Origin: Candidatus Gastranaerophilales bacterium
GTDB taxonomy: Bacteria > Cyanobacteriota > Vampirovibrionia > Gastranaerophilales > JANQFW01
Direction of reading: 5' to 3'
DNA: 64,000 nucleotides
NCBI GenBank assembly: GCA_028280605.1
Contig: JANQLL010000185.1
Coordinates: 1,567 to 65,566, forward strand
The notes beneath the pieces were generated by a model. The model was not told the origin of the DNA, made no database searches, and was given only the letters and a program-made list of their open reading frames with translations. Position numbers and translations under genes: made by a program. Positions 2,827 through 56,254 of this stretch are shown here, piece after piece; the stretch's first letter is position 1, and each line of letters starts with the position of its first letter.

Positions 2827-5421
2827 TTAATTAACACCATTAAAAGCATTTATATAAAGCTCCTTCATCTCAGACATCAAAGGATATCTTGGATTAGCGC
2901 CAGTACACTGGTCATCAAAAGCAAGCTCGGTTATTTCATCTATTTGGGCATAGAATTCTTCTTCACTAACCCCTGCCTCTTTGATTGATAAAGGTATATC
3001 AAGTTCCTTTTTAAGATTTTGTACTGCATTGATTAATGCATCAACTTTTTCATCATCGTTATTACCGTTCAATCCAATAACTGAAGCAATTTTAGCATAT
3101 CTCACCTTTGCGCTTGGATATTTATACTGAGGGAAAGAACACTGTTTTGTAGGATTATCCGTTGCATTGTACCTGATAATCTGATTTATCATAAGAGCAT
3201 TGGCAATACCATGCGGCAAGTCAAATGTAGCCCCAAGCTTGTGAGCCATTGAATGACACAACCCTAAAAACGAATTCGCAAACGCCATACCTGCCATTGT
3301 TCCTGCATAGTGCATTTTTTCCCTTGCTAATTGATTTTTAGCACCTTCTTTGTAGGATAAAGGAAGATATTCAAATATCATTTGTATTGATTCAAGTGCA
3401 ATGCCGTCAGTATAATCGCTGGCAACCACGGAAACATAGGCTTCAAGCGCGTGCGTTAACGCATCAATACCAGAAGCTGCTGTCAAGCCTTTTGGCATAT
3501 GCATAACAAAATCAGGATCAACAATCGCCATATTGGGAGTTAGTGCATAATCAGCAATAGGATATTTAATATGGGTCTTATCATCTGTAATTACAGCAAA
3601 AGGTGTAACTTCAGAACCTGTACCTGATGTTGTAGGTATTGCTACCATATCAGCCTTGTTTCCAAGTGCCGGTACCTGGCAAATTCTTTTTCTTATATCC
3701 ATAAAGCGCATCGCTATATCATCAAATTTTAAGTCCGGCTGTTCATACATCAGCCATATTATTTTAGCGGCATCAATAGGAGAACCGCCACCCAATGCAA
3801 TAATAACATCCGGCTTAAAGCTGTTAACTGTTTCCAATGCGTGGTTTACTGTAGTCAAATCAGGATCAGGCTTAACGTCAGAAAATATTTGATAATTAAT
3901 ATCCATTTCTTCAAGTACATTAGTAACTTTATGAGTATACCCAAGATCAAAAAGAACTTTATCTGTAATAATAAAAGCTTTTTGCTTGCACTCAAGTTCT
4001 TTTAAAGCTAATTCCACAGCTCCTTGCTTAAAATAAATTTTAGGAGGAACCCTAAACCACAGCATATTCTCTCTCCTTTCAGCAACAGTTTTAATATTAA
4101 TAAGATGATGAATCTCTACGTTTTCACTAACAGAATTCCCGCCCCAGGAGCCACAACCCAGAGTTAAAGAAGGAGTAAGCCTAAAGTTATAAATATCTCC
4201 AATTGCACCGTGAGAAGAAGGAGAATTAACAAGCACCCTGCCTGTTTCAATGTTATTACTAAATTGTTCAATACGATCTTTATTTAAAGGATTAGTATAA
4301 AGAACAGAAGTATGGCCCTGTCCGCCAAATTCTATAAGCTTAACAGATTTATCTATTGCCTCATCATAGTTATGAGCATAATATAAAGCAAGAATTGGTG
4401 ATAGTTTTTCATAAGAAAGAGGCTCTTCTGTACCGACTTTATCAACTTCACCTATTAGGACTTTTGTATTTTCAGGCACTTCAAGTCCTGCAAGCTGTGC
4501 GATTTTATAAGCGGGCTGCCCTACTATTTGGGCATTTAGTTTACCATCTTGTATTATTACTTCTCTTACACGATCCTTTTCCCAATCATTGAGTATATAA
4601 GCGCTGCGATAGATAAATTCATCTTTTACTGCATTGTAAACATCTGAAACAGCCACAACCGATTGTTCAGATGCGCAAATAACACCATTATCAAAAGTTT
4701 TGCTCATCAAAATTGAACTAACAGACATTTTAATATCAGCTGTTTCATCTATAATTGCAGGAGTATTACCCGCACCTACGCCTAAAGCAGGCTTACCCGA
4801 ACTGTACGCTGCTTTTACCATACTTGGCCCACCTGTAGCTAATATTAAATTGACCTTAGGATGGTGCATTAAATGCAGAGAAGATTCAACAGTAGGTTCT
4901 TCCAGCCAGCCGATAATATCTTTAGGAGCTCCCGCATCAATTGCCGCTTGCAATGTTATTCTTGCGGCTTCGATAGTACAATTTTTTGCCCTGGGATGAG
5001 GAGAAAAAATAATGGCATTTCTTGTTTTTAATGCAAGCAATGCCTTAAATATAGCTGTTGAAGTCGGATTTGTAGTTGGTATTATACCGGCTATTATACC
5101 TATGGGCTCAGCTACTTTTGTTATTCCGTTTGTTATATCTTCTTCTATAATCCCGCAGGTTTTAGAATTTTTAAATTTATTAAAAATATATTCAGACGCA
5201 AAATGATTTTTTATAACCTTATCTTCTACTATGCCCATTGAGGTTTCTTCCACAGCCTGCTTAGCCAGAGGAACCCTCATGTTATTGGCTGCTAATGCTG
5301 CTGCTTTAAAAATTTTATCAACCTGTTCTTGTGTATACGTAGAATAAATTTTTTGTGCTTCTGTTGCTTTTTGAATAACTAAATCTAAAGCTTCTGAATC
5401 AAACGTTTTCATAGTATCCAT
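2827..5421 (-). CDS. adhE: Bifunctional acetaldehyde-CoA/alcohol dehydrogenase AdhE
   Basis: 864 aa. N-terminal ALDH domain with catalytic Cys context VICASEQS; C-terminal iron-ADH domain with GGGSPIDAAK. SD GGAG lies upstream of the ATG. Confidence 0.95.
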   Translation of the reverse strand: MDTMKTFDSEALDLVIQKATEAQKIYSTYTQEQVDKIFKAAALAANNMRVPLAKQAVEETSMGIVEDKVIKNHFASEYIFNKFKNSKTCGIIEEDITNGITKVAEPIGIIAGIIPTTNPTSTAIFKALLALKTRNAIIFSPHPRAKNCTIEAARITLQAAIDAGAPKDIIGWLEEPTVESSLHLMHHPKVNLILATGGPSMVKAAYSSGKPALGVGAGNTPAIIDETADIKMSVSSILMSKTFDNGVICASEQSVVAVSDVYNAVKDEFIYRSAYILNDWEKDRVREVIIQDGKLNAQIVGQPAYKIAQLAGLEVPENTKVLIGEVDKVGTEEPLSYEKLSPILALYYAHNYDEAIDKSVKLIEFGGQGHTSVLYTNPLNKDRIEQFSNNIETGRVLVNSPSSHGAIGDIYNFRLTPSLTLGCGSWGGNSVSENVEIHHLINIKTVAERRENMLWFRVPPKIYFKQGAVELALKELECKQKAFIITDKVLFDLGYTHKVTNVLEEMDINYQIFSDVKPDPDLTTVNHALETVNSFKPDVIIALGGGSPIDAAKIIWLMYEQPDLKFDDIAMRFMDIRKRICQVPALGNKADMVAIPTTSGTGSEVTPFAVITDDKTHIKYPIADYALTPNMAIVDPDFVMHMPKGLTAASGIDALTHALEAYVSVVASDYTDGIALESIQMIFEYLPLSYKEGAKNQLAREKMHYAGTMAGMAFANSFLGLCHSMAHKLGATFDLPHGIANALMINQIIRYNATDNPTKQCSFPQYKYPSAKVRYAKIASVIGLNGNNDDEKVDALINAVQNLKKELDIPLSIKEAGVSEEEFYAQIDEITELAFDDQCTGANPRYPLMSEMKELYINAFNGVN

Positions 5422-24164: not shown

Positions 24165-24291
24165 TAAAAAAAAATTATGCTAAGCTTACAAAAACATTAA
24201 CAATTATTTTACTTTATTTGTGAATAAGTTGATAATACAATAAAATCAACTATAAATTAAGATAAAAAATGGAAAATATGGAAAATTAAAA

Positions 24292-25653
24292 ATGCAGCAA
24301 TTATTAGAAAAAAATAAAAAAAGTCAAGTAATAACTAATAAAAATCAGCTGATGGAAATATTTTTCAGCGGAATAAAACCTGATACGGATTTTAAAATTG
24401 GCTTAGAATTTGAAAAACTTGGAATTGATAATAAAAATTTTATAGCAAAACCTTTTTCAGGAGAAAATGGCATATTTGAGTTTTTGGAAAATTTTAAAAC
24501 AGAACACAATTTATCAACCCAAAGCTCTGATGAGCTTGTAAATAATATCAATTATAAAGAAGGCATAATAACGATTGAGCCGGGAAGTCAGATTGAATAT
24601 AGTATCAATCCACATAAAACCATTCAAGAATTAAGTACAATAGTTGCAAATTATAATAATATTACCAATGAACTGGCTGAAAAGATGAGTATAAAATGGA
24701 TTGGACTTGGAAACCAACCTGTATCTACACATGGAAATATTATTATAATTCCAAAAGATCGTTATAAAATAATGACAGAATATCTTCCAACAAAAGGCAG
24801 CCGTCCTTTTGTTATGATGAGAGAAACTGCCGGAATTCAAGCTGCATTTGATTTTAATTCAGAAGAAGATGCAATAAATAAGCTACGCTTATCCGTTGGA
24901 TTATCTCCTATAGTTACGGCTATGTTTGCAAATTCTCCAATTAGGGAAGGTAAATTATCAGGTTTTAAATCTTATAGGGCTTATGGGTGGCTAGATACAG
25001 ACGAGGATAGATGCGGCTTGATCTCACCTGAGTTATTTAAAAATAATTTTTCTTTTGAAAATTATACCGATATAATGCTTGATTTGCCTATGATATTCCT
25101 TCAAAAAGAAGGGAAATGGTTTAATATGAAAGGCATGCCGTTTAGAGAATATTTGAAAAGCGGATATAAAGGTTATCATGCAACCATTGAAGATTGGCAT
25201 TTGCATTTAAGTTCATTCTTCCCGGAAGCCAGGCTGAAAAACTATATAGAAGTCAGGTGTACTGATTGCCAGAGAGAAAATTTAATACCGGCAGTGCCTG
25301 CTTTATGGAAAGGCCTGTTATACAATCCTGATGCTTTAGATGCTGCTTGGGATATTATCAAAAATCTTGACTGGAGAGACTATAGCGATTTAAGGTTCTC
25401 TGTGCCTAAACTTGGTCTAAAAGCTAAATGCAGATATTTTAAAGTTGTTGATGTTGCCAAAGAAATTATTAATATAGCTATGCAGTCTTTAAAAGAGCAA
25501 CAGATTACTGATGGTATTGATGAATCCATATATTTAGAAGAATTCAGTGATCTTGTTCGTCAAGGCTTATCACCTGCTGATATTCTGATTGAAAACTGGA
25601 ACGGTGCTTGGAATAAAGATATTCGTAAGTTAATAAATTATGCATCTTTATAA
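24292..25653 (+). CDS. gshA: Glutamate-cysteine ligase, GCS2 (plant/cyanobacterial) type
   Basis: 453 aa. IEPGSQIEYS and FPEARLKNYIEVRCTD motifs typical of the plant-type GCL family. Confidence 0.8.
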   Translation: MQQLLEKNKKSQVITNKNQLMEIFFSGIKPDTDFKIGLEFEKLGIDNKNFIAKPFSGENGIFEFLENFKTEHNLSTQSSDELVNNINYKEGIITIEPGSQIEYSINPHKTIQELSTIVANYNNITNELAEKMSIKWIGLGNQPVSTHGNIIIIPKDRYKIMTEYLPTKGSRPFVMMRETAGIQAAFDFNSEEDAINKLRLSVGLSPIVTAMFANSPIREGKLSGFKSYRAYGWLDTDEDRCGLISPELFKNNFSFENYTDIMLDLPMIFLQKEGKWFNMKGMPFREYLKSGYKGYHATIEDWHLHLSSFFPEARLKNYIEVRCTDCQRENLIPAVPALWKGLLYNPDALDAAWDIIKNLDWRDYSDLRFSVPKLGLKAKCRYFKVVDVAKEIINIAMQSLKEQQITDGIDESIYLEEFSDLVRQGLSPADILIENWNGAWNKDIRKLINYASL

Positions 25654-25742: not shown

Positions 25743-25849
25743 TATACTCCCACTAAAATACTTTTCAGATTATTAAATCGAGTTAAAGTTAATAAAATAA
25801 ACTATTCTCTGGAAAGAGTAATCTGAAATTTAATTGATGAGCAGTATAA
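25743..25849 (-). repeat. 107-nt imperfect-palindrome repeat, copy A
   Basis: The reverse complement differs from copy C (43590-43696) at 3 of 107 positions by hand alignment. Confidence 0.85.
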
Positions 25850-25895: not shown

Positions 25896-25958
25896 AGTCT
25901 GATTGAATGCTATAACAAAGATGTTCGCAAGTTAATAGATTACTTGGGGCTGCTATAA
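25896..25958 (+). pseudogene. Displaced, diverged duplicate of the gshA 3' end
   Basis: Translates SLIECYNKDVRKLIDYLGLL*, versus the gshA C-terminus ILIENWNGAWNKDIRKLINYASL*. The 27-nt core is 23/27 identical and all differences are transitions. Confidence 0.6.
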
Positions 25959-26054: not shown

Positions 26055-26921
26055 ATGGCTTTTAATGCAGTTGGTGGCATAGCGCAAGTAAATGGACGAC
26101 CTGGCCCTTATGATAATAGGGTTAAAAATCCAAACGTTAGATACGGCAGAAATGCAGTAGCGAATTATGCTGAATATAATGCAAGGTTAAGCTTGCCGGC
26201 TGATCAATTTGATGCTCCGGATGTTAACGCTTTAGCTGGAGACTTGGCAGATTCTTTACAAGTTGCTAAAAGAATCAGTACAACAAAAATTCTACAAGCT
26301 TACGGAATAATTAATCCAAAATTTGCAGATGTAATCTTAAAAAGAGATGAAGGGCGTTTAGCTCAACAAAATGAAAGTACAGGGCAACGGTTAGATCAAC
26401 TAGAGGGTTGGACTAATGAGCAGCACAATATAATTGAAAATGCAGCTCCTATTGGCTTTAAACTACAGTATCTGCCAGAGGATAAAGTAACCCCAAAAAA
26501 TTTAAATAAATTAGCACTCATGGCTGCATCATTTGAAGATTTAGGCAAGAAAATTTCAATACCGGTAGTCCAAATAACTCAAGGCCTACAGCAAATCTTT
26601 GGTAAAAAAGTTTCGGCTGAAGCTCTTGATGCAAATAATGATGGTCAAATTGATATTGCAGAAAACGCTACTTCTATTTTAATAAAAGATATGGCAGATA
26701 AGCATTCAACAGATGATGTTGTAGCAACGGGCAAGCTTGACTTACAAGCAAAAGACATAGATGGTACTTATACAAATACTGGCGAAACTAATATTTGGTC
26801 CTTTTTAAAAACTGATAAGATTAGTGAAACAAAGCAACTTATTACTCAAATTTATAATGCTTTTCAATTAGATAAAGCAAAAGAAGAATTTTTAAGTGAT
26901 GAAAATAATACCATACAATAA
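26055..26921 (+). CDS. Hypothetical protein with one EF-hand-like calcium-binding loop
   Basis: 288-aa ORF. DANNDGQIDIAE (26628-26663) fits the DxNxDGxIDxxE EF-hand loop. No signal peptide. Confidence 0.6.
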   Translation: MAFNAVGGIAQVNGRPGPYDNRVKNPNVRYGRNAVANYAEYNARLSLPADQFDAPDVNALAGDLADSLQVAKRISTTKILQAYGIINPKFADVILKRDEGRLAQQNESTGQRLDQLEGWTNEQHNIIENAAPIGFKLQYLPEDKVTPKNLNKLALMAASFEDLGKKISIPVVQITQGLQQIFGKKVSAEALDANNDGQIDIAENATSILIKDMADKHSTDDVVATGKLDLQAKDIDGTYTNTGETNIWSFLKTDKISETKQLITQIYNAFQLDKAKEEFLSDENNTIQ

Positions 26922-27054
26922 CCATATATAGAGAATGCTCTTTTCTACTTGTTTAGTAAACTTTTTGTAACAATCATTCAACTTTCATGAAATACTTTAA
27001 CAAATATGTTATACTATATATATAGCATATAAATAATAGGTAGGTGTATTGGTC

Positions 27055-27507
27055 ATGAAAATAACACAATACGTTAAAACTCTATTTTTTATTTTGTGGA
27101 ATATGATAACATTCCTATGTTTAATTATTGCCCCGCAAAATTTAAATTCGGTGAAAGAACTTTGTTTATCTGTTCTTAAACGTATAGATAGTTATTTTTA
27201 TAATATATTTTTATATTTAAAAGAATTAAAAAAGAAAATAATAATAAATAAAAACAATAAAGCTGATGCCTCATCAGCACAACCTATTAATAAAAGTAAA
27301 AAACAAGTATTAAACTCGTTTGATATTAATAATAATATATTAAATCAAGCAGTAAAATCTTCAAAACGCTTATCTAACAACAAATTAAAGGATGCGCCAG
27401 CCACGCAAAATTTAATTTCAAAACAGCACTTTTTCCGCTTACAGGATAAGTGTGCCTTTTTATACTCTTTTGTAAGCAAAAACCATTGCAGTCTATATAT
27501 TTTTTAA
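27055..27507 (+). CDS. Small N-terminally anchored K/N-rich protein, paralogue 1
   Basis: 150 aa from the ATG at 27055. TM helix LFFILWNMITFLCLIIA. C-terminal LKDAPATQNLISKQHFFRLQDKCAFLY is shared with 55706-56191. Confidence 0.55.
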   Translation: MKITQYVKTLFFILWNMITFLCLIIAPQNLNSVKELCLSVLKRIDSYFYNIFLYLKELKKKIIINKNNKADASSAQPINKSKKQVLNSFDINNNILNQAVKSSKRLSNNKLKDAPATQNLISKQHFFRLQDKCAFLYSFVSKNHCSLYIF

Positions 27508-27770
27508 TTTTTACATCACATACAATTGAATATTTTTTTCAGCTCTCTTTAAGGCTAAAAGAGGCGGAATTTATAATGGATACTTTAATCACTAGTAAAA
27601 AGTATCCATTATAATTATATATGAATTCCTATGTCATACCCTTAAATTAAATATAAAAATCGGGCTTGGCTCAAAAAAGGGCCAAAGCAAAAGCTAGATT
27701 TAGAAATTATGAATAATATTTTTTTACTTTAAATTTTTATTTCTTAAAATTTTAAAAATTACTTAATATA

Positions 27771-28628
27771 TTAATTAAATAGCCCGCAAAACATAATAAC
27801 TCCAAATATTATTATAAAAACAGGTCCGGCAAGTTCCACTATTTTTAGTAATACTTGAACACTATTATTAGACTTTTTTAACATAATTAATTTACGAAAA
27901 TAAAACGATAATAAACCCACTGCAGTAATAGTGGAGCCTATGCCTAAACCTATGGCGATTACAAGCATTACACCAATATAAAACATTTTACTGGCAGCAG
28001 TAAAAAGTAATATTAACAATGATCCTATACAAGGCACTAACCCTGCGGAAAAAGCAAGAGCTGTTGAATTATGCTTGCAGTTGCAAACATTTTTTTTGAT
28101 ATTTCTCAATTTACTTATAAGCATAAAAAGCCCAATACCAATAACTAAAAGAAAACTTATAAATTTAAACCAGTAAATCTGCTTATCAGGATCGGATATT
28201 ATCTGCCGTAAAGAAATATCTGCAATCAACACAAATATAATTGGCGTAATAACATGAGTCATAGATATCTGATAAGCCATAATAGGAACTTTTTGAAGTT
28301 TTTCTTCACTAGAAATAAAATAAGAAGCTATAATAGCCTTGGAATGACCCGGGCCTAAAGCATGAAGACAGCCATATAAAAAAGCAAAAAATATCCCTAT
28401 CGCAAAAACCATCGGATTTTTTTCTTTTTTTATGTTTCTTAAAGTTTTAGTAATTTCAAAATTGAGCATTCTCTGTACTTTCAATATTTCAGAAAAAATG
28501 CTTCTGACAGGATTAATTTGAACTTCTGCCTTAGCAGGTGCAGGCCCGATAGCATTAACAGGCTGAGCAATAAAACAAATACTAAACATAAATAATGAAA
28601 ATATAAAAACTAAAAAATAATTTTTCAT
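27771..28628 (-). CDS. NicO/RcnA-superfamily metal (Ni/Co-type) transporter permease
   Basis: Multi-TM protein with HALGPGHSK motif. ATG at 28628 is preceded by AAGGAGG and overlaps the DUF1007 stop (ATGA). Confidence 0.7.
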   Translation of the reverse strand: MKNYFLVFIFSLFMFSICFIAQPVNAIGPAPAKAEVQINPVRSIFSEILKVQRMLNFEITKTLRNIKKEKNPMVFAIGIFFAFLYGCLHALGPGHSKAIIASYFISSEEKLQKVPIMAYQISMTHVITPIIFVLIADISLRQIISDPDKQIYWFKFISFLLVIGIGLFMLISKLRNIKKNVCNCKHNSTALAFSAGLVPCIGSLLILLFTAASKMFYIGVMLVIAIGLGIGSTITAVGLLSFYFRKLIMLKKSNNSVQVLLKIVELAGPVFIIIFGVIMFCGLFN

Positions 28629-29251
28629 AATCCTCCTTGGCTCCCGCAATGTAATTTTATCCTCTGAGGGGGCACAGTTTTATAATAATAAAGGTTTTGT
28701 AAATCCTCATCTATTTTATACTTGCAACTATTGGGACCAGTACCGGCAAAAGATGCAGGTTTAGTTTCATCAAAATAAACATAATAATAATAGCTTTCAT
28801 CATAAAAACTTGCTGACAATGGTTTTAACGACAAATCAACAGGTATATCAAAGTTAACAGTAAAGCTTATGGTTATAATATCTTGATCGTTAACTGTAAA
28901 ACCAAACTCTCGTGGCTTAAATGTCAATAGATTATTGTCAAATTTTATATAGCTGTAATAATTTTTATTTGCCATGTTTTCAAGGACAAATTTATGTATC
29001 TCCCATTTCAGCTGTTTTTTCTCAACTTCATCAAGCTTATCATTGTTATTACTGTCAACAGCCTTGATTAGCATCAAACTATTCATTTCATCAAGCTTCC
29101 AGTTTGTTTTTATTTTTATTAATTGTTTTTTTTTAAATATAAAAACAATGGAATTCTCTATCCACCCATGAGGATGTGATATGGTAGAAGACAAAGGAGA
29201 AAATATAAAAAAAGTAAATATTATAAGGCTTAATAAATATTTTATTTTCAT
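28625..29251 (-). CDS. DUF1007-family periplasmic partner of the metal transporter
   Basis: Signal peptide then HPHGW motif. Conserved pairing with the NicO-like permease. Confidence 0.65.
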   Translation of the reverse strand: MKIKYLLSLIIFTFFIFSPLSSTISHPHGWIENSIVFIFKKKQLIKIKTNWKLDEMNSLMLIKAVDSNNNDKLDEVEKKQLKWEIHKFVLENMANKNYYSYIKFDNNLLTFKPREFGFTVNDQDIITISFTVNFDIPVDLSLKPLSASFYDESYYYYVYFDETKPASFAGTGPNSCKYKIDEDLQNLYYYKTVPPQRIKLHCGSQGGL

Positions 29252-29294
29252 GTAAAAATTTAACCTTTTTTGCTTTTTTATTATTAAAATTTTA

Positions 29295-29399
29295 TTATAC
29301 AGGTTTTCAATTAAATTTCAGATTACTCTTTTCAGAGATTAGCTTACTTTATTAACTTTTACACTATTTAAAAATCTGAAAAGTATTTTAGAAGTAATA
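29295..29399 (+). repeat. Imperfect-palindrome repeat, copy B (diverged)
   Basis: About 85% identical to copy C by hand alignment. Lies between the rhodanese stop and the DUF1007 start. Confidence 0.75.
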
Positions 29400-29408
29400 T
29401 AAATATAT

Positions 29409-29807
29409 TTATTTATCAAAAGAATAGCCAAGCTTTTGCCAATTATTTAAGCCTCCTTTAAGTATTTTTAGCTGTAAAAAACCATTTGTACTTAAATTTT
29501 TATATGCTTGTATACTCTTAACTTGGTCACTACAAATAAGAATTATTGTTTTATCGGTAGGCAACTTATTTTGATGTTCTTTTAAATTCGTAAACGGTAT
29601 ATTTTGTGAACCTGCTATATGTTGATTCTTGTACTCAAGTTTATTTCGTACATCAATAAGTACGAGCCCTGGTTTAGTCAGGTTACCTCTTAATTCATCA
29701 GCTTCTATTACGGGTATATTCTCAAGCCCGATACTTGATTTTAATAATATTTTTCTAAAAAAAGATACTAAAAAAGTTATTAATCCCAATAATAATATTA
29801 ATTTCAT
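29409..29807 (-). CDS. Membrane-anchored rhodanese-domain protein
   Basis: N-terminal TM helix plus rhodanese fold with active-site loop CSDQVKS. Confidence 0.75.
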   Translation of the reverse strand: MKLILLLGLITFLVSFFRKILLKSSIGLENIPVIEADELRGNLTKPGLVLIDVRNKLEYKNQHIAGSQNIPFTNLKEHQNKLPTDKTIILICSDQVKSIQAYKNLSTNGFLQLKILKGGLNNWQKLGYSFDK

Positions 29808-35836: not shown

Positions 35837-36144
35837 ACCCTTTTAGACTGTCTGTTTTACTCTTTTATATTGTTTTATGGTACGTTTCTATATTATTTTT
35901 ATTATTTCATATAATTTTTTAAAATAAAAAAAATAAAAATATGAAATAATAAACCTTATTATAGCCATCCATCTATATAATAATACAGAAAAAGAACTTT
36001 TTATCATATCCCTAAATTTAAAATATAGATTCACGAATTATAATTATATATTATAATTATGAGTAGTTAAATTTAAAAAAGTGTTGAAGATCACCATATC
36101 GAGTGGAGGAGTACTCTAGAGACAGCATAAAAAGGGTGGAGTTT

Positions 36145-43589: not shown

Positions 43590-43696
43590 TTATACTGCTC
43601 ATCAATTAAATTTCAGATTACCCTTTTCAGAGAATAGTTTATTTTATTAACTTTAACTCGATTTAATAATCTGAAAAGTATTTTAGTGGAAGTATA
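43590..43696 (+). repeat. 107-nt imperfect-palindrome repeat, copy C
   Basis: 104/107 identical to the reverse complement of 25743-25849. Internal perfect pairing TTTCAGATTA (43611-43620) with TAATCTGAAA (43667-43676). Confidence 0.85.
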
Positions 43697-44036
43697 ATAA
43701 CAAAGTTTAAATAAAAAATAAAGCTTATAAAATAAGCTGAAAACTGAAGCGAATAGTTAAAAGTTAATTGTGAGTATTATAAATAATATTGAAGTGAAAA
43801 AGATAGGGAAATAAATTCCGCTAGTGTTAAAATGATGCGGAAAAAGGGAATAAACAGGGGAAGTAAGATATTTTAGCGTGTAAAACACGAGATTGAAAAA
43901 TTAAATAGGATCAGGAATTTGGACGAGTAAGTTTAGGAAGCTTATATACAGAATTGCAAAAAAATACCTCATATACCTTAATATACCTCATAGCTTATAC
44001 ACATATTGCAGTTTATACAAACTGCATTTTTATTTT
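43697..44036 (+). ncRNA. Candidate GGA-rich, C-poor non-coding RNA ending at an intrinsic terminator
   Basis: Eight GGA motifs lie between 43807 and 43938. Local hairpins include TTCCGC..GCGGAA and CGTGT-AAA-ACACG. No ORF of 60 aa or more in any frame. Terminator at 44007-44036. Confidence 0.3.
44007..44036 (+). terminator. Intrinsic terminator
   Basis: 8-bp stem TGCAGTTT/AAACTGCA, 4-nt loop, then TTTTTATTTT. Confidence 0.65.
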
Positions 44037-44114
44037 ATAAAACAGGCTTTATTAATGCTTATGGTTGTATTACGATAAGTTTTGATCAAATGAAACTATT
44101 AAAATGGGGGAAAG

Positions 44115-44555
44115 ATGGAATACACACAAGCTTCACAAGGTAGGGTATTTGTCGCAAGAATAGATGACAGCGAAGATATGATAGAAGAACTAAAAAAAAT
44201 TATCAAAAAAGAAAATATTAGAGCCGGTTTTGTGCACTTAATGGGAGCTTTATCTTCAAGCAAAGTTGTTTTAGGTCCTGAAGAAAAGGAATATCCGCCT
44301 AATCCCGTATGGTGGGAACATAATGATGTGTTTGAAGTGGCTGGCTTGGGAGTTTTTGCCTGGGAAAATGATGAACCTAAAATTCATATACATTCTTCTT
44401 TTGGTAATTATAAAGATACAAAAATGGGTTGTATCAGAGAAAAAGCAGAAGTCTATCTAACTATAGAAGCTGTTATACAAGAAGTTATCAACCCTAATAT
44501 CACCAGAAAATTAGATGATAGATATAACGCAAGCTTGCTAAATTTTAAATATTAA
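44115..44555 (+). CDS. PPC/DUF296-domain protein
   Basis: 146 aa. N-terminal GRVFVARIDDSEDM and central HLMGALSS pattern of the PPC (DUF296) fold. Confidence 0.65.
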   Translation: MEYTQASQGRVFVARIDDSEDMIEELKKIIKKENIRAGFVHLMGALSSSKVVLGPEEKEYPPNPVWWEHNDVFEVAGLGVFAWENDEPKIHIHSSFGNYKDTKMGCIREKAEVYLTIEAVIQEVINPNITRKLDDRYNASLLNFKY

Positions 44556-45550
44556 TGAAAAAAGAAGATATATTTATAAAAATAATTCAAAATGCACTGC
44601 CTTCTTCTAAAGATTATATTGGCGATGATACAGCTTTTATTAAAGAAAAAGATATTGTAATTACTCAAGATACTTTAGTTGAGGATGTGCATTTTAGAAC
44701 TGCTACAATCAGTCCGTATAATTTAGCGCAAAAAGCTGTTGCTGTTAATCTTAGCGATATTGCAGCAGCTGGAGCGGTCCCTTCTTATTTGGTAATATCT
44801 CTTTCCCTTCCAGGGCATATAAAAGAAGATTATATAAAAGAATTTTATAAAGGTATTAACGATATTTGCACAAAATATCATGTCTTAACCATTGGCGGGG
44901 ATTTGACAGGTGGAGAAAAAATAGTAATTAGTATAACTATGCTTGGCAATTGCAATAGTATACCTCCGGCAGCTCGATCTAATGCTCGGGTAGGTGATTA
45001 TATAATTACAACAGGTGAATATGGTTCCAGTTTTATGGGGTTTAATATTTTAGAAAATCCTGATAATATTTATAATTTAACGGATATTGAAAAAGAATAT
45101 TTTAAAAATGCTCATATCAATCCAATCCCACGAGTAAAAGAGGGTCTAGTAATCGCGGAAATTAACAAGAATAATAAATTATGTATGATGGATACTAGTG
45201 ATGGGCTTGCAGATGCATTATTTAAAATTTCAAAACTAAGTAATATCAGTATGGAAATAGATTATAATTCTATACCCTTTAATTCAGCTTTAGCTAAAGC
45301 TGTTAAAAGCAAGTCTGATATTTTCAATTGTATTTTATTTGGGGGAGAAGATTATGAGCTGGTGGCATGTGTAACTCAAAGTACATTAAAAGAACTTAAG
45401 AAAAATCGTGTAAAATTTTCTGTTATTGGAAGAGTTGCCAAGAATTTTGGTTCTGCTAAAATAATAATGAAACTGGATGATAAAATTTTTGAACTAACAA
45501 AAAACTTATTAGAAAATAACTTATTTAATCATTTTAAGGATGATCTATGA
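44555..45550 (+). CDS. thiL: Thiamine-monophosphate kinase ThiL
   Basis: IGDDTAF, AVNLSDIAAAGA and DTSDGLADAL motifs of the AIR-synthase-related family. Confidence 0.85.
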   Translation: MKKEDIFIKIIQNALPSSKDYIGDDTAFIKEKDIVITQDTLVEDVHFRTATISPYNLAQKAVAVNLSDIAAAGAVPSYLVISLSLPGHIKEDYIKEFYKGINDICTKYHVLTIGGDLTGGEKIVISITMLGNCNSIPPAARSNARVGDYIITTGEYGSSFMGFNILENPDNIYNLTDIEKEYFKNAHINPIPRVKEGLVIAEINKNNKLCMMDTSDGLADALFKISKLSNISMEIDYNSIPFNSALAKAVKSKSDIFNCILFGGEDYELVACVTQSTLKELKKNRVKFSVIGRVAKNFGSAKIIMKLDDKIFELTKNLLENNLFNHFKDDL

Positions 45551-48716: not shown

Positions 48717-48791
48717 AATTTTATTAATAAAATATTGAATTTCTTTTATGTAATATATATCATAATTTTAATAAGTAAAAAGTAGTATTAA

Positions 48792-48880
48792 AATAGAATA
48801 ATTGGGAAACTTCGGTGAAAATCCGAGGCTGTGTCGCAACTGTAAGGGTAAAACCTAAGCCAGAACACCACTATTCTATT
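48792..48880 (+). promoter_or_regulatory. Cobalamin riboswitch aptamer (compact form)
   Basis: GGGAAAC..GGTGAAAATCC..GCTGTGTCGCAACTGTAAGGG..AGCCAGAACACC core with B12-box-like element. P1 pairs AATAGAATA (48792-48800) with TATTCTATT (48872-48880). Lies upstream of the btuBCDF-like genes. Confidence 0.8.
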
Positions 48881-49116
48881 CTATCTTACTCTTGCGATGC
48901 ACAAGAAAAGGAGATAAAAGATGATAAAATTAGAATAGCACAATCTATATTGACAGACTTCTTATTTTAAGTTTGTTCTTTTGTATAAAATTCTCAAAAC
49001 TTAATAATTTATACAAAAACCTAATTTTAAAAGTCAAATAAGTAATATAACATTTATTATTACCTATTTGATTAATGTTGATTTGTTTTATATATAGAAA
49101 GAACTAAAAAGAAAAT

Positions 49117-55042: not shown

Positions 55043-55705
55043 TCTAAAATTACCCTCTTTATTACTTATTAATGTACTTTTTTGACGAGTATGTCCACGT
55101 AAATTCTATACTTATCAAGCTTAAAAATAATCATTCATTTTAAGTAAAAGGGTATATATAATGTACTGAGAAAACTGAACCAGAAAAAATAAAAAGTGTT
55201 TCCCTGATAAAATAAATTAAATAAAGAATGAAATCATCTAAAATTGTTTCATCCAATTTAGTTTCTTTTTTGTCAAAAATCAGAGAAGACTGATTATATA
55301 AAACTTTTGAATCATACGACATTAAAGACTTTGTTGATAGACCCTTAAAATATACTTTAACAAAATTAATTGATATATCTTGTTTAAAGGATATTGATGG
55401 TGGGAATTTAAACGAAGATATTGCAAGGCAAAGGGAATGCCCCAAAATCCTTATTTCAAAGTAAAAAAAAGAATACAAGAGCTGAAGAAAGAAAATTAAT
55501 AATATACAAAATGAATAATATAACAGTGCAAGCACAAAGCAATCAAATCTTTTAAGCTAAGCGTGCTTTAGAAAATTTTTCCTTGATTTTTTATTAAGAA
55601 ATGCTACAAAATTAGCATTTTCACATTTCAGGAGCCTGCGGAAATTTTAAAAAAATGCTAAAATATATATAAAGTATACAATTGAAATTAGTGAGTGTAT
55701 TGGTC

Positions 55706-56191
55706 ATGAAACTATCACAATACATAAAAACTTTATATGCAATCTTGTGGAATCTAATAGCATTCCTATGTTCAATTATTTCATTAAGTAATATCACGAA
55801 AAAGAAAACACCTTCTTTTTCGCTTTTAGTATATGCTTACAATATTTTAACCATGACTTATAAAGATTTAAATGAACTTATAAATAATATATTATCAAAA
55901 CAAAAACATAATAACACTGCTGCAACAACGGCAGTAACAAACCCTATATACAAAAACAAAAACTCTGTATCAAACAGAGTAAAATCTAATAACATATTAA
56001 TAAACCAAGCACTAAAAAGTGCAAACTTATTATCAACCTTGAGATTAAAGGATGCGCCAGCCACGCAAATGTTAATTTCAAAACAGCACTTTGTTCGCTT
56101 ACAGGATAAGTGTGCCTTTTTATACCCCTTTTGTAAGCAAAAGTCATTGCAGTTAATAAATCTTTTAATTTTTACATCAACACATAATTGA
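55706..56191 (+). CDS. Small N-terminally anchored K/N-rich protein, paralogue 2
   Basis: ATG at 55706. TM helix LYAILWNLIAFLCSIISL. C-terminal LKDAPATQMLISKQHFVRLQDKCAFLY is shared with 27055-27507. Confidence 0.5.
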   Translation: MKLSQYIKTLYAILWNLIAFLCSIISLSNITKKKTPSFSLLVYAYNILTMTYKDLNELINNILSKQKHNNTAATTAVTNPIYKNKNSVSNRVKSNNILINQALKSANLLSTLRLKDAPATQMLISKQHFVRLQDKCAFLYPFCKQKSLQLINLLIFTSTHN

Positions 56192-56254
56192 ATATTTTTT
56201 TTGACTCTCTTTAAGGCTAAAAGTACGGGTTTTGTGATGCCCGCATAATCTATA

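What the first reader, a model, noticed from the sequence alone, without database searches (positions are those of the whole stretch)
25743..25849. Family of ~107-nt imperfect-palindrome repeats: three intergenic copies (25743-25849 reverse, 29295-29399, 43590-43696)
The same ~107-nt sequence occurs three times, always between genes. By hand alignment, the reverse complement of copy A differs from copy C at only 3 of 107 positions, although the two are 18 kb apart and inverted. Copy B is about 85% identical. Consensus from copy C: TTATACTGCTCATCAATTAAATTTCAGATTACCCTTTTCAGAGAATAGTTTATTTTATTAACTTTAACTCGATTTAATAATCTGAAAAGTATTTTAGTGGAAGTATA. The unit is an imperfect palindrome. The outer ends are TATACT and AGTATA. 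An inner perfect 10-bp pair, TTTCAGATTA/TAATCTGAAA, encloses a 46-nt AT-rich loop. A second TTTTCAGA motif offers an alternative partner for TCTGAAAA. No ORF is conserved: only copy C has a start codon, and B-versus-C substitutions are not concentrated at synonymous sites. The architecture resembles Correia/ERIC/MITE-like miniature elements or a small structured-RNA family. No transposase is present in the window.
Basis: seen in the sequence. Interest (0 to 1): 0.7.

Follow-up and report, generated by a model that had tools for sequence, protein, structure and literature searches.

The report
Correia-like mobile miniature repeat (MITE) family
The three ~107-base repeats are copies of a small non-coding "jumping" DNA element (a MITE) that is scattered between genes in a few uncultured gut-type Melainabacteria genomes. 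It is a real and tidy example, but of an already well-known kind of element.

Summary
Three ~107-nt copies sit at 25743-25849 (-), 29295-29401 (+) and 43590-43696 (+). A and C differ at 3 of 107 positions; B is about 85% identical.

A profile built from the copies finds about 70 more full or partial copies in ~250 kb from two related Candidatus Gastranaerophilales MAGs. All full-length copies are intergenic and occur in both orientations. The ends are sharp (T|TATACTG...AGTATA|N), with ~30-nt imperfect terminal inverted repeats.

Five orthologous sites are filled in one genome and empty in a relative. These include window copies B and C. The junctions fit a TA target-site duplication best, but this is not proven.

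There is no Rfam match, no covariation, and stop codons in all six frames. A ~165-nt long subfamily also exists. Both ends carry an outward-facing promoter-like motif, CTGAAA-16-TATAAn.

Verdict: a non-autonomous DNA transposon (MITE) of Correia/RUP architecture. It is probably mobilised in trans by a TA-targeting transposase of the IS630/Tc1-mariner type, which I did not find. The structured-RNA alternative is not supported. It is a new member of a known kind, of modest interest.

The parts
25743..25849 (-). MITE copy A. It lies between the GCS2-family glutamate-cysteine ligase gene (24292-25653, +) and an unknown 288-aa ORF (26055-26921, +).
   Evidence: nhmmer 94.9 bits, model positions 2-107. 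A Logan contig of the same strain breaks inside it. The orthologous GCS2 downstream regions of bin.2 and bin.96 have no copy, but synteny also changes there.
29295..29401 (+). MITE copy B. It is inserted in the short spacer between the rhodanese gene (29409-29807, -) and the DUF1007-NicO metal-transporter genes (28625-29251 and 27771-28649, -).
   Evidence: The orthologous spacers are empty in bin.2 (L027, 47 nt) and bin.96 (L026, 19 nt), against 157 nt in the window.
43590..43696 (+). MITE copy C. It lies in the conserved non-coding region upstream of the PCC-domain and thiamine-phosphate kinase genes (44115-45550, +).
   Evidence: The site is empty in bin.2 (L029: GCTAATTATAAGAAGG). bin.96 has an independent copy about 25 nt further on, in the opposite orientation (L028 6862-6983).
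43591..43620 (+). Left terminal inverted repeat of copy C (TATACTGCTCATCAATTAAATTTCAGATTA). Family consensus: TATACTnnnCTCAAnnAAnnTTTCAGA.
   Evidence: Alignment of the ends of 27 copies.
43666..43696 (+). Right terminal inverted repeat of copy C (TAATCTGAAAAGTATTTTAGTGGAAGTATA).
   Evidence: Helix 2 is 93.5% paired, through sequence conservation rather than covariation.
43671..43698 (+). Outward-facing sigma-70-like motif at the right end of C (CTGAAA-16-TATAAT, 10/12). The mirror site at the left end is 43616->43589 on the - strand.
   Evidence: The motif is present at >=9/12 in 15 of 27 right ends and 16 of 27 left ends. This is a consensus match only; function is inferred.
29294..29321 (-). 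Outward-facing promoter-like motif at the left end of copy B (CTGAAA-16-TATAAT, 10/12). It points at the DUF1007-NicO genes; the DUF1007 start codon is at 29251.
   Evidence: Function is inferred.
36108..36129 (+). Probable decayed 3'-terminal remnant of a fourth copy (GGAGTACTCTAGAGACAGCATA|AAAAGGG). It lies 5 nt upstream of the ribosome-binding site of the 243-aa gene.
   Evidence: (alignment A8): bin.96 has a full copy at exactly this junction (L026 1347-1446) and bin.2 is empty. Searches give coordinates. It is too degenerate for nhmmer to detect.

Best explanation
[quoted passage not shown] A MITE is a non-coding, non-autonomous cut-and-paste DNA transposon.

Anatomy. The short form is about 102-106 nt, with ~30-nt imperfect terminal inverted repeats (TATACTnnnCTCAAnnAAnnTTTCAGA). 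These repeats contain the TTTCAGA heptamer, which I take to be the transposase-binding motif.

Mechanism. The element inserts into AT-rich intergenic DNA, most likely at a TA dinucleotide that it duplicates (TA|TACTG...AGTA|TA). Such an element needs a transposase supplied in trans. The TA target points to an IS630/Tc1-mariner-type DDE enzyme, but none was found.

History. The family has expanded to different extents in three related Candidatus Gastranaerophilales genomes. The window's copies A and C (97% identical) are recent, lineage-specific insertions.

Side effect. Each end carries an outward-facing CTGAAA-16-TATAAn motif. As in Correia elements, this could act as a promoter; in copy B it faces DUF1007-NicO.

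Shown: multi-copy status, sharp ends, terminal inverted repeats, filled/empty polymorphism, no coding capacity, no RNA covariation.
Inferred: the TA duplication (best fit, not proven), the transposase family, and any promoter activity.
For: 1. Family size and spread. A pattern scan of 185,579 species genomes hit 22 loci. Twenty are in two Gastranaerophilales MAGs (GCA_028282645.1 'bin.96' and GCA_028277625.1 'bin.2'). A profile HMM then found 81 full or partial hits in 312 kb.

2. Unbiased density, measured in loci fetched through window orthologues rather than through the repeat: about 10 per 50 kb in bin.96, about 1 per 47 kb in bin.2, and 3 per 64 kb in the window.

3. Homology stops abruptly at T|TATACTG on the left and AGTATA|N on the right in 27 copies. 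The ends are inverted repeats.

4. Five orthologous filled/empty comparisons, each with junctions at the repeat ends:
- Copy B versus L026 and L027.
- A bin.96 copy between DUF1007 and NicO versus the window and bin.2.
- L026 1347-1446 versus bin.2, with a remnant in the window.
- Copy C versus L029, plus an independent opposite-orientation insertion in L028.
- A long copy upstream of GCS2 in L025 versus the window and L024.

5. At the NicO site, only a TA (or TAT) duplication restores the conserved ...TTATGAAAAAT start-codon context.

6. All 38 copies scored lie outside ORFs of >=90 aa. They occur in both orientations: 15 opposite, 7 same, 6 between divergent genes, 0 between convergent genes.

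7. No coding capacity, no Rfam family, and no covariation.

8. Contigs break inside copies.

9. Short (~107 nt) and long (~165 nt) size classes differ by a ~60-nt internal block.

10. Published definition. Bacterial MITEs are under 200 bp, non-coding and A+T-rich, with terminal inverted repeats, 5'-TA-3' termini and target duplications. RUP is 107 bp and TA-targeting. Correia elements are ~105 and ~155 bp with a TA target (PMC2229807, PMC2649163).
Against: No autonomous element or transposase with matching terminal repeats was found. This covers ~280 kb of window plus loci, the Pfam annotations of genes in L023-L029, and 20 mid-size ORFs of bin.96 loci.

The target duplication cannot be separated cleanly from the conserved TATA ends. 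Reconstructed empty sites differ from the real ones as follows:
- TA model: off by 0, 1, 1 and 1 nt.
- No duplication: loses the ATG at one site, then off by 1, 1 and 3 nt.
- AT model: off by 0, 3, 3 and 1 nt.
TA is therefore favoured, not proven.

The genomes compared are 80-87% identical at protein level, so their intergenic alignments are noisy. Only three genomes carry the family, and all are MAGs. The promoter-like motifs are consensus matches in AT-rich DNA; site counts in these regions do not exceed shuffles.
Confidence: 0.85

Rival explanations
1. A family of small structured RNAs or cis-regulatory leader RNAs. The imperfect palindrome would be the RNA fold, and the alternative TTTTCAGA partner would act as a switch.
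For: Copies A and C fold better than shuffles (z -2.3 to -3.2). There are alternative pairing partners for TCTGAAAAG. Copy B lies 43 nt upstream of a metal-transporter operon.
Against: No Rfam match, even at E<=10. Copy B folds no better than shuffles (z +0.6 and 0.0). RNAalifold keeps only 8 invariant pairs, with an unfavourable covariation term. All five pair measures equal the shuffle means. Both orientations occur relative to flanking genes. Orthologous genes do without the element.
Confidence: 0.03
2. A palindromic repeat of another mobility class. Either a REP/BIME-type element mobilised by a RAYT tyrosine-HUH transposase, or an IS200/IS605-derived palindrome-associated element. Both insert without terminal inverted repeats or target duplication.
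For: It is intergenic, palindromic and multi-copy. The base 5' of the left end is conserved asymmetrically (T before TATAC in about 90% of copies), while the base after the right end is not conserved. The 'no duplication' model is only slightly worse than TA at three of four sites.
Against: The unit is 102-107 nt with ~30-nt terminal inverted repeats, not a 20-40-nt GC-rich hairpin with a GTAG/CGTC head (REP definition, PMC3733652 abstract). No RAYT or TnpA-Y1 gene was seen in the annotated loci. At the NicO site the no-duplication model removes the conserved ATG.
Confidence: 0.06
3. The copies are mobile in origin but are now kept as host regulatory modules, such as portable outward promoters or protein-binding sites. 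This would explain why they cluster upstream of genes. It does not exclude the main explanation.
For: The CTGAAA-16-TATAAn motif faces outward at both ends in over half of the copies. None of 28 informative copies lies between convergent genes (0.75^28 is about 3e-4 if sites were chosen at random among spacer types). Independent insertions hit the same ~60-nt stretch in two lineages. Correia elements have proven promoters (PMC10969869).
Against: There are no expression data. Promoter-like matches are common in 30% GC DNA (counts not above shuffles). Convergent spacers are short and hold terminators, so depletion may reflect target size or purifying selection. Orthologous operons function without the element.
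Confidence: 0.25

Closest known systems
Correia repeat-enclosed elements (CREE/NEMIS) of Neisseria
   Same: Both are non-coding and mostly intergenic. Both have two size classes that differ by an internal block: 104-108 and 153-157 bp in Neisseria (PMC2649163), ~107 and ~165 nt here. Both have TATA-type termini (TATAG... versus TATAC...), a TA target, ~25-30-nt terminal repeats, outward promoter motifs at the ends, and no identified mobilising transposase.
   Different: The phyla are unrelated (Melainabacteria/Vampirovibrionia versus Betaproteobacteria). No sequence homology was shown; a partial resemblance of the terminal repeats (TATA-TGG...ATTAAATTT) is recalled from memory and was not tested. 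No IHF site or RNase III processing was tested. The composition is much more AT-rich.
RUP (repeat unit of pneumococcus), an IS630-Spn1-derived MITE
   Same: Both are 107 bp, intergenic, have stops in all frames, insert at TA, show high identity between copies that suggests recent mobility, and number around 100 copies per genome (PMC2229807).
   Different: RUP has a known partner, IS630-Spn1, with matching terminal repeats. No partner was found here. RUP's contiguous terminal repeat is 9 bp, against about 30 nt imperfect here.
Cyanobacterial MITEs (e.g. Nezha, Microcystis MITEs)
   Same: They occur in the same broad phylum (Cyanobacteriota in the wide sense) and have the same general MITE architecture (listed in PMC10969869).
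   Different: Those are described in photosynthetic cyanobacteria. The full-text search found no paper describing a MITE in Melainabacteria. No sequence relationship was tested.
ERIC/IRU of enterobacteria
   Same: Both are imperfect palindromes of ~127 bp or ~107 nt, intergenic, with TA termini and target duplication (PMC2229807, Table 1).
   Different: ERIC has only a 7-bp contiguous terminal repeat, and its positions are largely conserved between species. This family shows frequent presence/absence differences.

Membership tests
Prokaryotic MITE (generic definition, PMC2229807 / PMC10969869) | Small (<~300 bp) and without coding capacity | tested here: met
   102-108 nt (short form) and ~165 nt (long form). 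Stops in all six frames in nearly all of 27 copies.
Prokaryotic MITE (generic definition) | Terminal inverted repeats at sharply defined ends | tested here: met
   Homology ends at T|TATACTG and AGTATA|N in 27 copies. The ~30-nt imperfect repeat includes TTTCAGA/TCTGAAA.
Prokaryotic MITE (generic definition) | Multiple dispersed copies in a genome | tested here: met
   81 profile hits in 312 kb. Copies lie on many separate contigs of two MAGs plus the window.
Prokaryotic MITE (generic definition) | Evidence of mobility: filled versus empty orthologous sites | tested here: met
   Five site comparisons.
Prokaryotic MITE (generic definition) | Target-site duplication flanking the element | tested here: inconclusive
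   TA fits best and alone preserves the NicO start context matching the window sequence. Because it merges with the conserved TATA termini, the other three sites are each off by 1 nt. A 4-bp TATA duplication is excluded: the end variants AGCATA (6-7 copies) and TATTC (4-5 copies) are element-encoded.
IS630/Tc1-mariner-derived MITE | Terminal repeats matching those of an IS630-family element, and a DDE transposase in the same or related genomes | tested here: not met
   No full-length element in ~280 kb. No transposase domain in the annotated genes of L023-L029 or in 20 further ORFs. The MAGs are incomplete, so absence is weak evidence.
IS630/Tc1-mariner-derived MITE | Strict TA target with TA duplication | tested here: inconclusive
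   See the target-site duplication row. TA is favoured, not proven.
Correia/CREE family proper | Sequence homology to the Neisseria Correia consensus | not tested
   No Correia sequence was available in the tools. The resemblance in architecture is documented from PMC2649163 and PMC2229807 only. I do not file this as a member.
Structured non-coding RNA family | Conserved secondary structure supported by compensatory changes, and a consistent strand relative to genes | tested here: not met
   (no covariation above shuffles). (both orientations). (no Rfam match).
REP/BIME | 20-40-nt GC-rich hairpin with a GTAG/CGTC head, associated RAYT gene | tested here: not met
   The unit is 102-107 nt and AT-rich with TATAC termini. 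No RAYT-like gene in the annotated loci.

The most novel reading that the evidence does not exclude
This would be a second, phylogenetically independent 'orphan' MITE system of the Correia type. It shares the size classes, TATA/TA termini and outward promoters, and has no recognisable transposase. It is caught in a lineage-specific burst: about 1 copy per 5 kb in one MAG against about 1 per 47 kb in a sister MAG. If the mobilising enzyme really is absent or of an unrecognised kind, comparing the burst and non-burst genomes could identify how Correia-like elements move, which is still undetermined for Neisseria (PMC2649163). It would also show MITE-borne promoters rewiring operons in uncultured gut Melainabacteria.
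Probability: 0.1. Interest if true: 0.55.

Novelty: new member of a known kind. Interest (0 to 1): 0.27.

Why it matters
It adds a well-delimited MITE family to Melainabacteria (Gastranaerophilales), a little-studied, uncultured lineage. My full-text search found no paper describing a MITE in that lineage.

Practical points:
- The repeat breaks short-read assemblies of these MAGs.
- It marks recent strain- and species-level differences.
- It sits in regulatory spacers, for example in front of a DUF1007-NicO metal-transporter operon, and between DUF1007 and NicO in a sister genome, where its last base supplies the A of the ATG.
- Annotators should mask it, and should not call the short ORFs that read into it.

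Beyond that it is an ordinary example of a known class.

Tried and rejected
- Rfam, at gathering and permissive thresholds: nothing for the repeat.
- RNA structure and covariation: rejected.
- JGI metagenome scans (2) and one IMG/VR scan. There were no family members; the 7 metagenome hits match only ~28 nt around the pattern and are chance.
- blastn of the consensus against PLSDB plasmids and INPHARED phages: only E~1 fragments.
- The Rahnella hit of the genome scan is a 27-nt chance match.
- Transposase hunt:
  - Pfam and PHROGs scans of 83 locus ORFs through the alignment shortcut were uninformative, because only the top 25 families are listed.
  - 20 ORFs of 285-425 aa scanned individually: no transposase.
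  - Search for unpaired terminal-repeat pairs 250-4000 nt apart: none.
- A ~96-aa ORF family that seemed to accompany the repeat in L010 and L021 is just a tandem coiled-coil gene family with MITEs in its spacers.
- Clean empty site for copy A: not obtainable, because synteny downstream of GCS2 differs in both relatives.
- A 4-bp TATA and a 2-bp AT duplication were considered and found to fit worse than TA. A 3-bp TAT could not be excluded.
- attC/integron, CRISPR and terminator readings were considered. They were dismissed on anatomy: no arrays, no GTTRRRY ends, no T-tract, and never between convergent genes.

Full report
**Observation**

The three copies are real. They lie at 25743-25849 (-), 29295-29401 (+) and 43590-43696 (+). 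The reverse complement of A differs from C at 3 of 107 positions. B is 84-85% identical to both. The invariant 20-mer and 19-mer blocks each occur exactly three times, against 0.03 and 0.16 matches (at up to 3 mismatches) expected from shuffles.

The window is about 32% GC. All three copies are intergenic:
- A lies after a GCS2-family ligase gene.
- B lies between a rhodanese gene and a DUF1007-NicO transporter pair.
- C lies in a long spacer upstream of PCC-domain and thiamine-phosphate kinase genes.

**Family and host**

I made one exact-pattern scan of one genome per species (185,579 species). It returned 22 loci. Twenty come from two MAGs of Candidatus Gastranaerophilales: GCA_028282645.1 ('bin.96') and GCA_028277625.1 ('bin.2'). 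One is a contig end of a MAG labelled Tissierellales. One is a 27-nt chance match in Rahnella.

Flanking proteins of the window have 80-87% identical orthologues in the same two MAGs. The window is therefore a third, related Gastranaerophilales genome.

A profile HMM built from 24 copies found 81 full or partial hits in 312 kb. I measured density in loci fetched through window orthologues, which avoids selecting for the repeat:
- bin.96: about 10 per 50 kb.
- bin.2: about 1 per 47 kb.
- The window: 3 per 64 kb.

Several copies sit at contig ends. A Logan contig of the same strain ends inside copy A. This is the usual signature of an assembly-breaking repeat.

The family was not found in JGI metagenomes, IMG/VR, PLSDB plasmids or INPHARED phages.

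**Anatomy**

In 27 full-length copies, homology stops abruptly at T|TATACTG on the left and AGTATA|N on the right. The two ends are ~30-nt imperfect inverted repeats, TATACTnnnCTCAAnnAAnnTTTCAGA. The left half holds a second, direct TTTCAGA.

A long subfamily (~165 nt, mainly in bin.96) carries an extra ~60-nt internal block between ...TTTCTCTT and TTCAGAGAATAG.... Nearly all copies have stops in all six frames. The short ORF that reads into copy C is not conserved, because bin.2 lacks the ATG.

**Mobility**

Five orthologous comparisons show a copy in one genome and none in another, with junctions at the repeat ends.

1. Copy B. The rhodanese-DUF1007 spacer is 157 nt in the window, 47 nt in bin.2 and 19 nt in bin.96.
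2. bin.96 has a copy between DUF1007 and NicO (L026 8624-8720). Those genes abut in bin.2 and overlap in the window.
3. bin.96 has a copy at L026 1347-1446. bin.2 is empty there. The window keeps only a decayed 3' end at the same junction (36108-36129).
4. Copy C is absent from bin.2. bin.96 has an independent insertion about 25 nt further on, in the opposite orientation.
5. A long copy upstream of GCS2 in bin.96 is absent from the window and bin.2, inside an otherwise almost invariant spacer.

**Target duplication**

The termini read TA-TACTG...AGTA-TA.

At the NicO site, the filled sequence is GAGTAAT[TA]TACTG...GTAGTA[TA]TGAAAAAT. Collapsing it with a TA duplication gives ...ATTATGAAAAAT, identical to the window's empty site. 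Removing TATAC...GTATA without any duplication would delete the conserved ATG.

At the other three usable sites, TA and 'no duplication' are each off by about 1 nt in homopolymer runs (B: TA -1, none -3). An AT duplication is off by 3, 3 and 1 nt.

A 4-bp TATA duplication is excluded. The end variants AGCATA (6-7 copies) and TATTC (4-5 copies) recur in different loci without matching the opposite end, so they are element-encoded.

Two abutting pairs share the four bases (T/C)ATA (L016 3877, L012 1059). This fits insertion into a terminal TA.

I conclude that a TA duplication is the best-supported reading. It is not proven.

**Not an RNA family**

- There is no Rfam match, even at E<=10.
- A and C fold somewhat better than shuffles; B does not.
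- RNAalifold keeps only the 8 invariant TTTTCAGA/TCTGAAAA pairs, with an unfavourable covariation term.
- For the full hairpin, all five pair measures equal the shuffle means.
- Relative to neighbouring genes, copies occur in both orientations: 15 opposite, 7 same, 6 between divergent genes.

**Context bias and possible side effects**

No copy lies between convergent genes, 0 of 28 informative cases.

Each end carries an outward-facing CTGAAA-16-TATAAn motif. It scores 10/12 at both ends of C and at the end of B that faces DUF1007-NicO. It scores >=9/12 at 15 of 27 right ends and 16 of 27 left ends.

These are consensus matches in AT-rich DNA, and counts in these regions do not exceed shuffles. 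Promoter activity is therefore an inference by analogy with Correia elements (PMC10969869).

**Partner transposase**

None was found:
- There are no unpaired terminal-repeat pairs 250-4000 nt apart in ~280 kb.
- No transposase domains occur among the annotated genes of L023-L029.
- None occur in 20 further ORFs of bin.96 loci.

MAGs commonly lose insertion sequences, so this absence is weak evidence.

**Comparison with known elements**

The published definition of bacterial MITEs fits: under 200 bp, non-coding, A+T-rich, terminal inverted repeats, 5'-TA-3' termini and target duplications (PMC2229807).

The closest architectures are:
- Correia/CREE: 104-108 and 153-157 bp classes, TA target, promoters, mobilising mechanism undetermined (PMC2649163, PMC10969869).
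- RUP: 107 bp, TA target, IS630-Spn1 partner (PMC2229807).

Membership in either family proper is not claimed. Homology to Correia was not tested, and no IS630 partner was found. A full-text search found no paper describing a MITE in Melainabacteria.

**Verdict**

This is a new MITE family of a well-known kind. Interest is modest.

Noticed in passing
window 43800-44040 (+); orthologous L028 7002-7223 and L029 443-678: A non-coding stretch just downstream of copy C is nearly invariant across the three genomes, whose proteins are only 80-87% identical. It is GGA-rich (ATAGGGAAAT, GCGGAAAA, CAGGGGAAG, ATAGGATCAGGAATTTGGACGAG, TTTAGGAAGC), followed by ACCTCATATACCTTAATATACCTCATAGC. It ends in an intrinsic terminator (44007-44026 plus a T-run). 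There is no Rfam hit. In bin.96, fliW-csrA lie about 1.5 kb upstream. It is a candidate novel sRNA, possibly a CsrA sponge.
   Followed up: partly
window 25612-25640 versus 25914-25942: A diverged second copy of the 3' end of the GCS2 gene lies just beyond copy A. It matches 25 of 29 nt, the differences look codon-like, and the score is 38 against 17 +/- 3 for shuffles. The MITE-containing segment is therefore bracketed by direct repeats of the gene end. Downstream synteny also differs from both relatives. This is probably a rearrangement or integration scar.
   Followed up: partly
window 26990-27614 and 55641-56223; also L007 1638-2335, L018 3549-4219, L019 2939-3023, L025 16896-17263: A second multi-copy unit of ~600 nt, often at contig ends. 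It has a conserved TGTTATAAT promoter-like start, a variable middle that reads as a 152/169-aa ORF without Pfam hits, and a DNA-level invariant 3' block (GATTAAAGGATGCGCCAGCCACGCAAAATTTAATTTCAAA...CAGGATAAGTGTGCC). In L007 a ~95-nt insertion interrupts the ORF. There is no Rfam hit. Its nature is unexplained.
   Followed up: partly
window 24165-24291: The divergent spacer between the rRNA adenine dimethylase-like gene and GCS2 is almost 100% identical in the three genomes over ~120 nt. There is no Rfam hit and only a weak hairpin. It is probably a conserved regulatory region. bin.96 carries a truncated long MITE in it.
   Followed up: partly
window 48779-48917 (+): AdoCbl (cobalamin) riboswitch, 61 bits against a gathering score of 50. 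It is unrelated to the repeat.
   Followed up: no
L026 8612-8725 (bin.96): A MITE is inserted between DUF1007 and NicO inside the operon. The last A of the element (or its TA duplication) forms the A of the NicO ATG start codon.
   Followed up: yes
L025, L026, L028 (bin.96) versus L024, L027, L029 (bin.2): MITE density differs about ten-fold between two sister genomes: about 1 per 5 kb against about 1 per 47 kb. This indicates a lineage-specific burst. bin.96 also holds most long-form (~165 nt) copies, as well as tandem or abutting copies (L011 820-1030, L020 3619-3789, L016 3827-3923, L010 69-850).
   Followed up: partly
L018 (JANQLB010000095.1, labelled Tissierellales MAG): This 4.4-kb contig carries two MITE copies, one 98% identical to window copy A, and a copy of the ~600-nt unit. 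Its 714-aa ORF is the same length as the AMIN/amidase gene of bin.2. It is probably a mis-binned Gastranaerophilales contig.
   Followed up: no
L021 5370-7821 and L010 2993-3286: A tandem family of ~96-aa coiled-coil ORFs (MGLVASQARLMMLLSRKTDLEF...) has MITE copies in the spacers between the paralogues.
   Followed up: partly
L014 ~4740-4812: A MITE copy abuts the 5' end of a tRNA-like sequence on the opposite strand (…TTGGCAAGGAGG…, apparently tRNA-Gly GCC). This was read by eye only.
   Followed up: no
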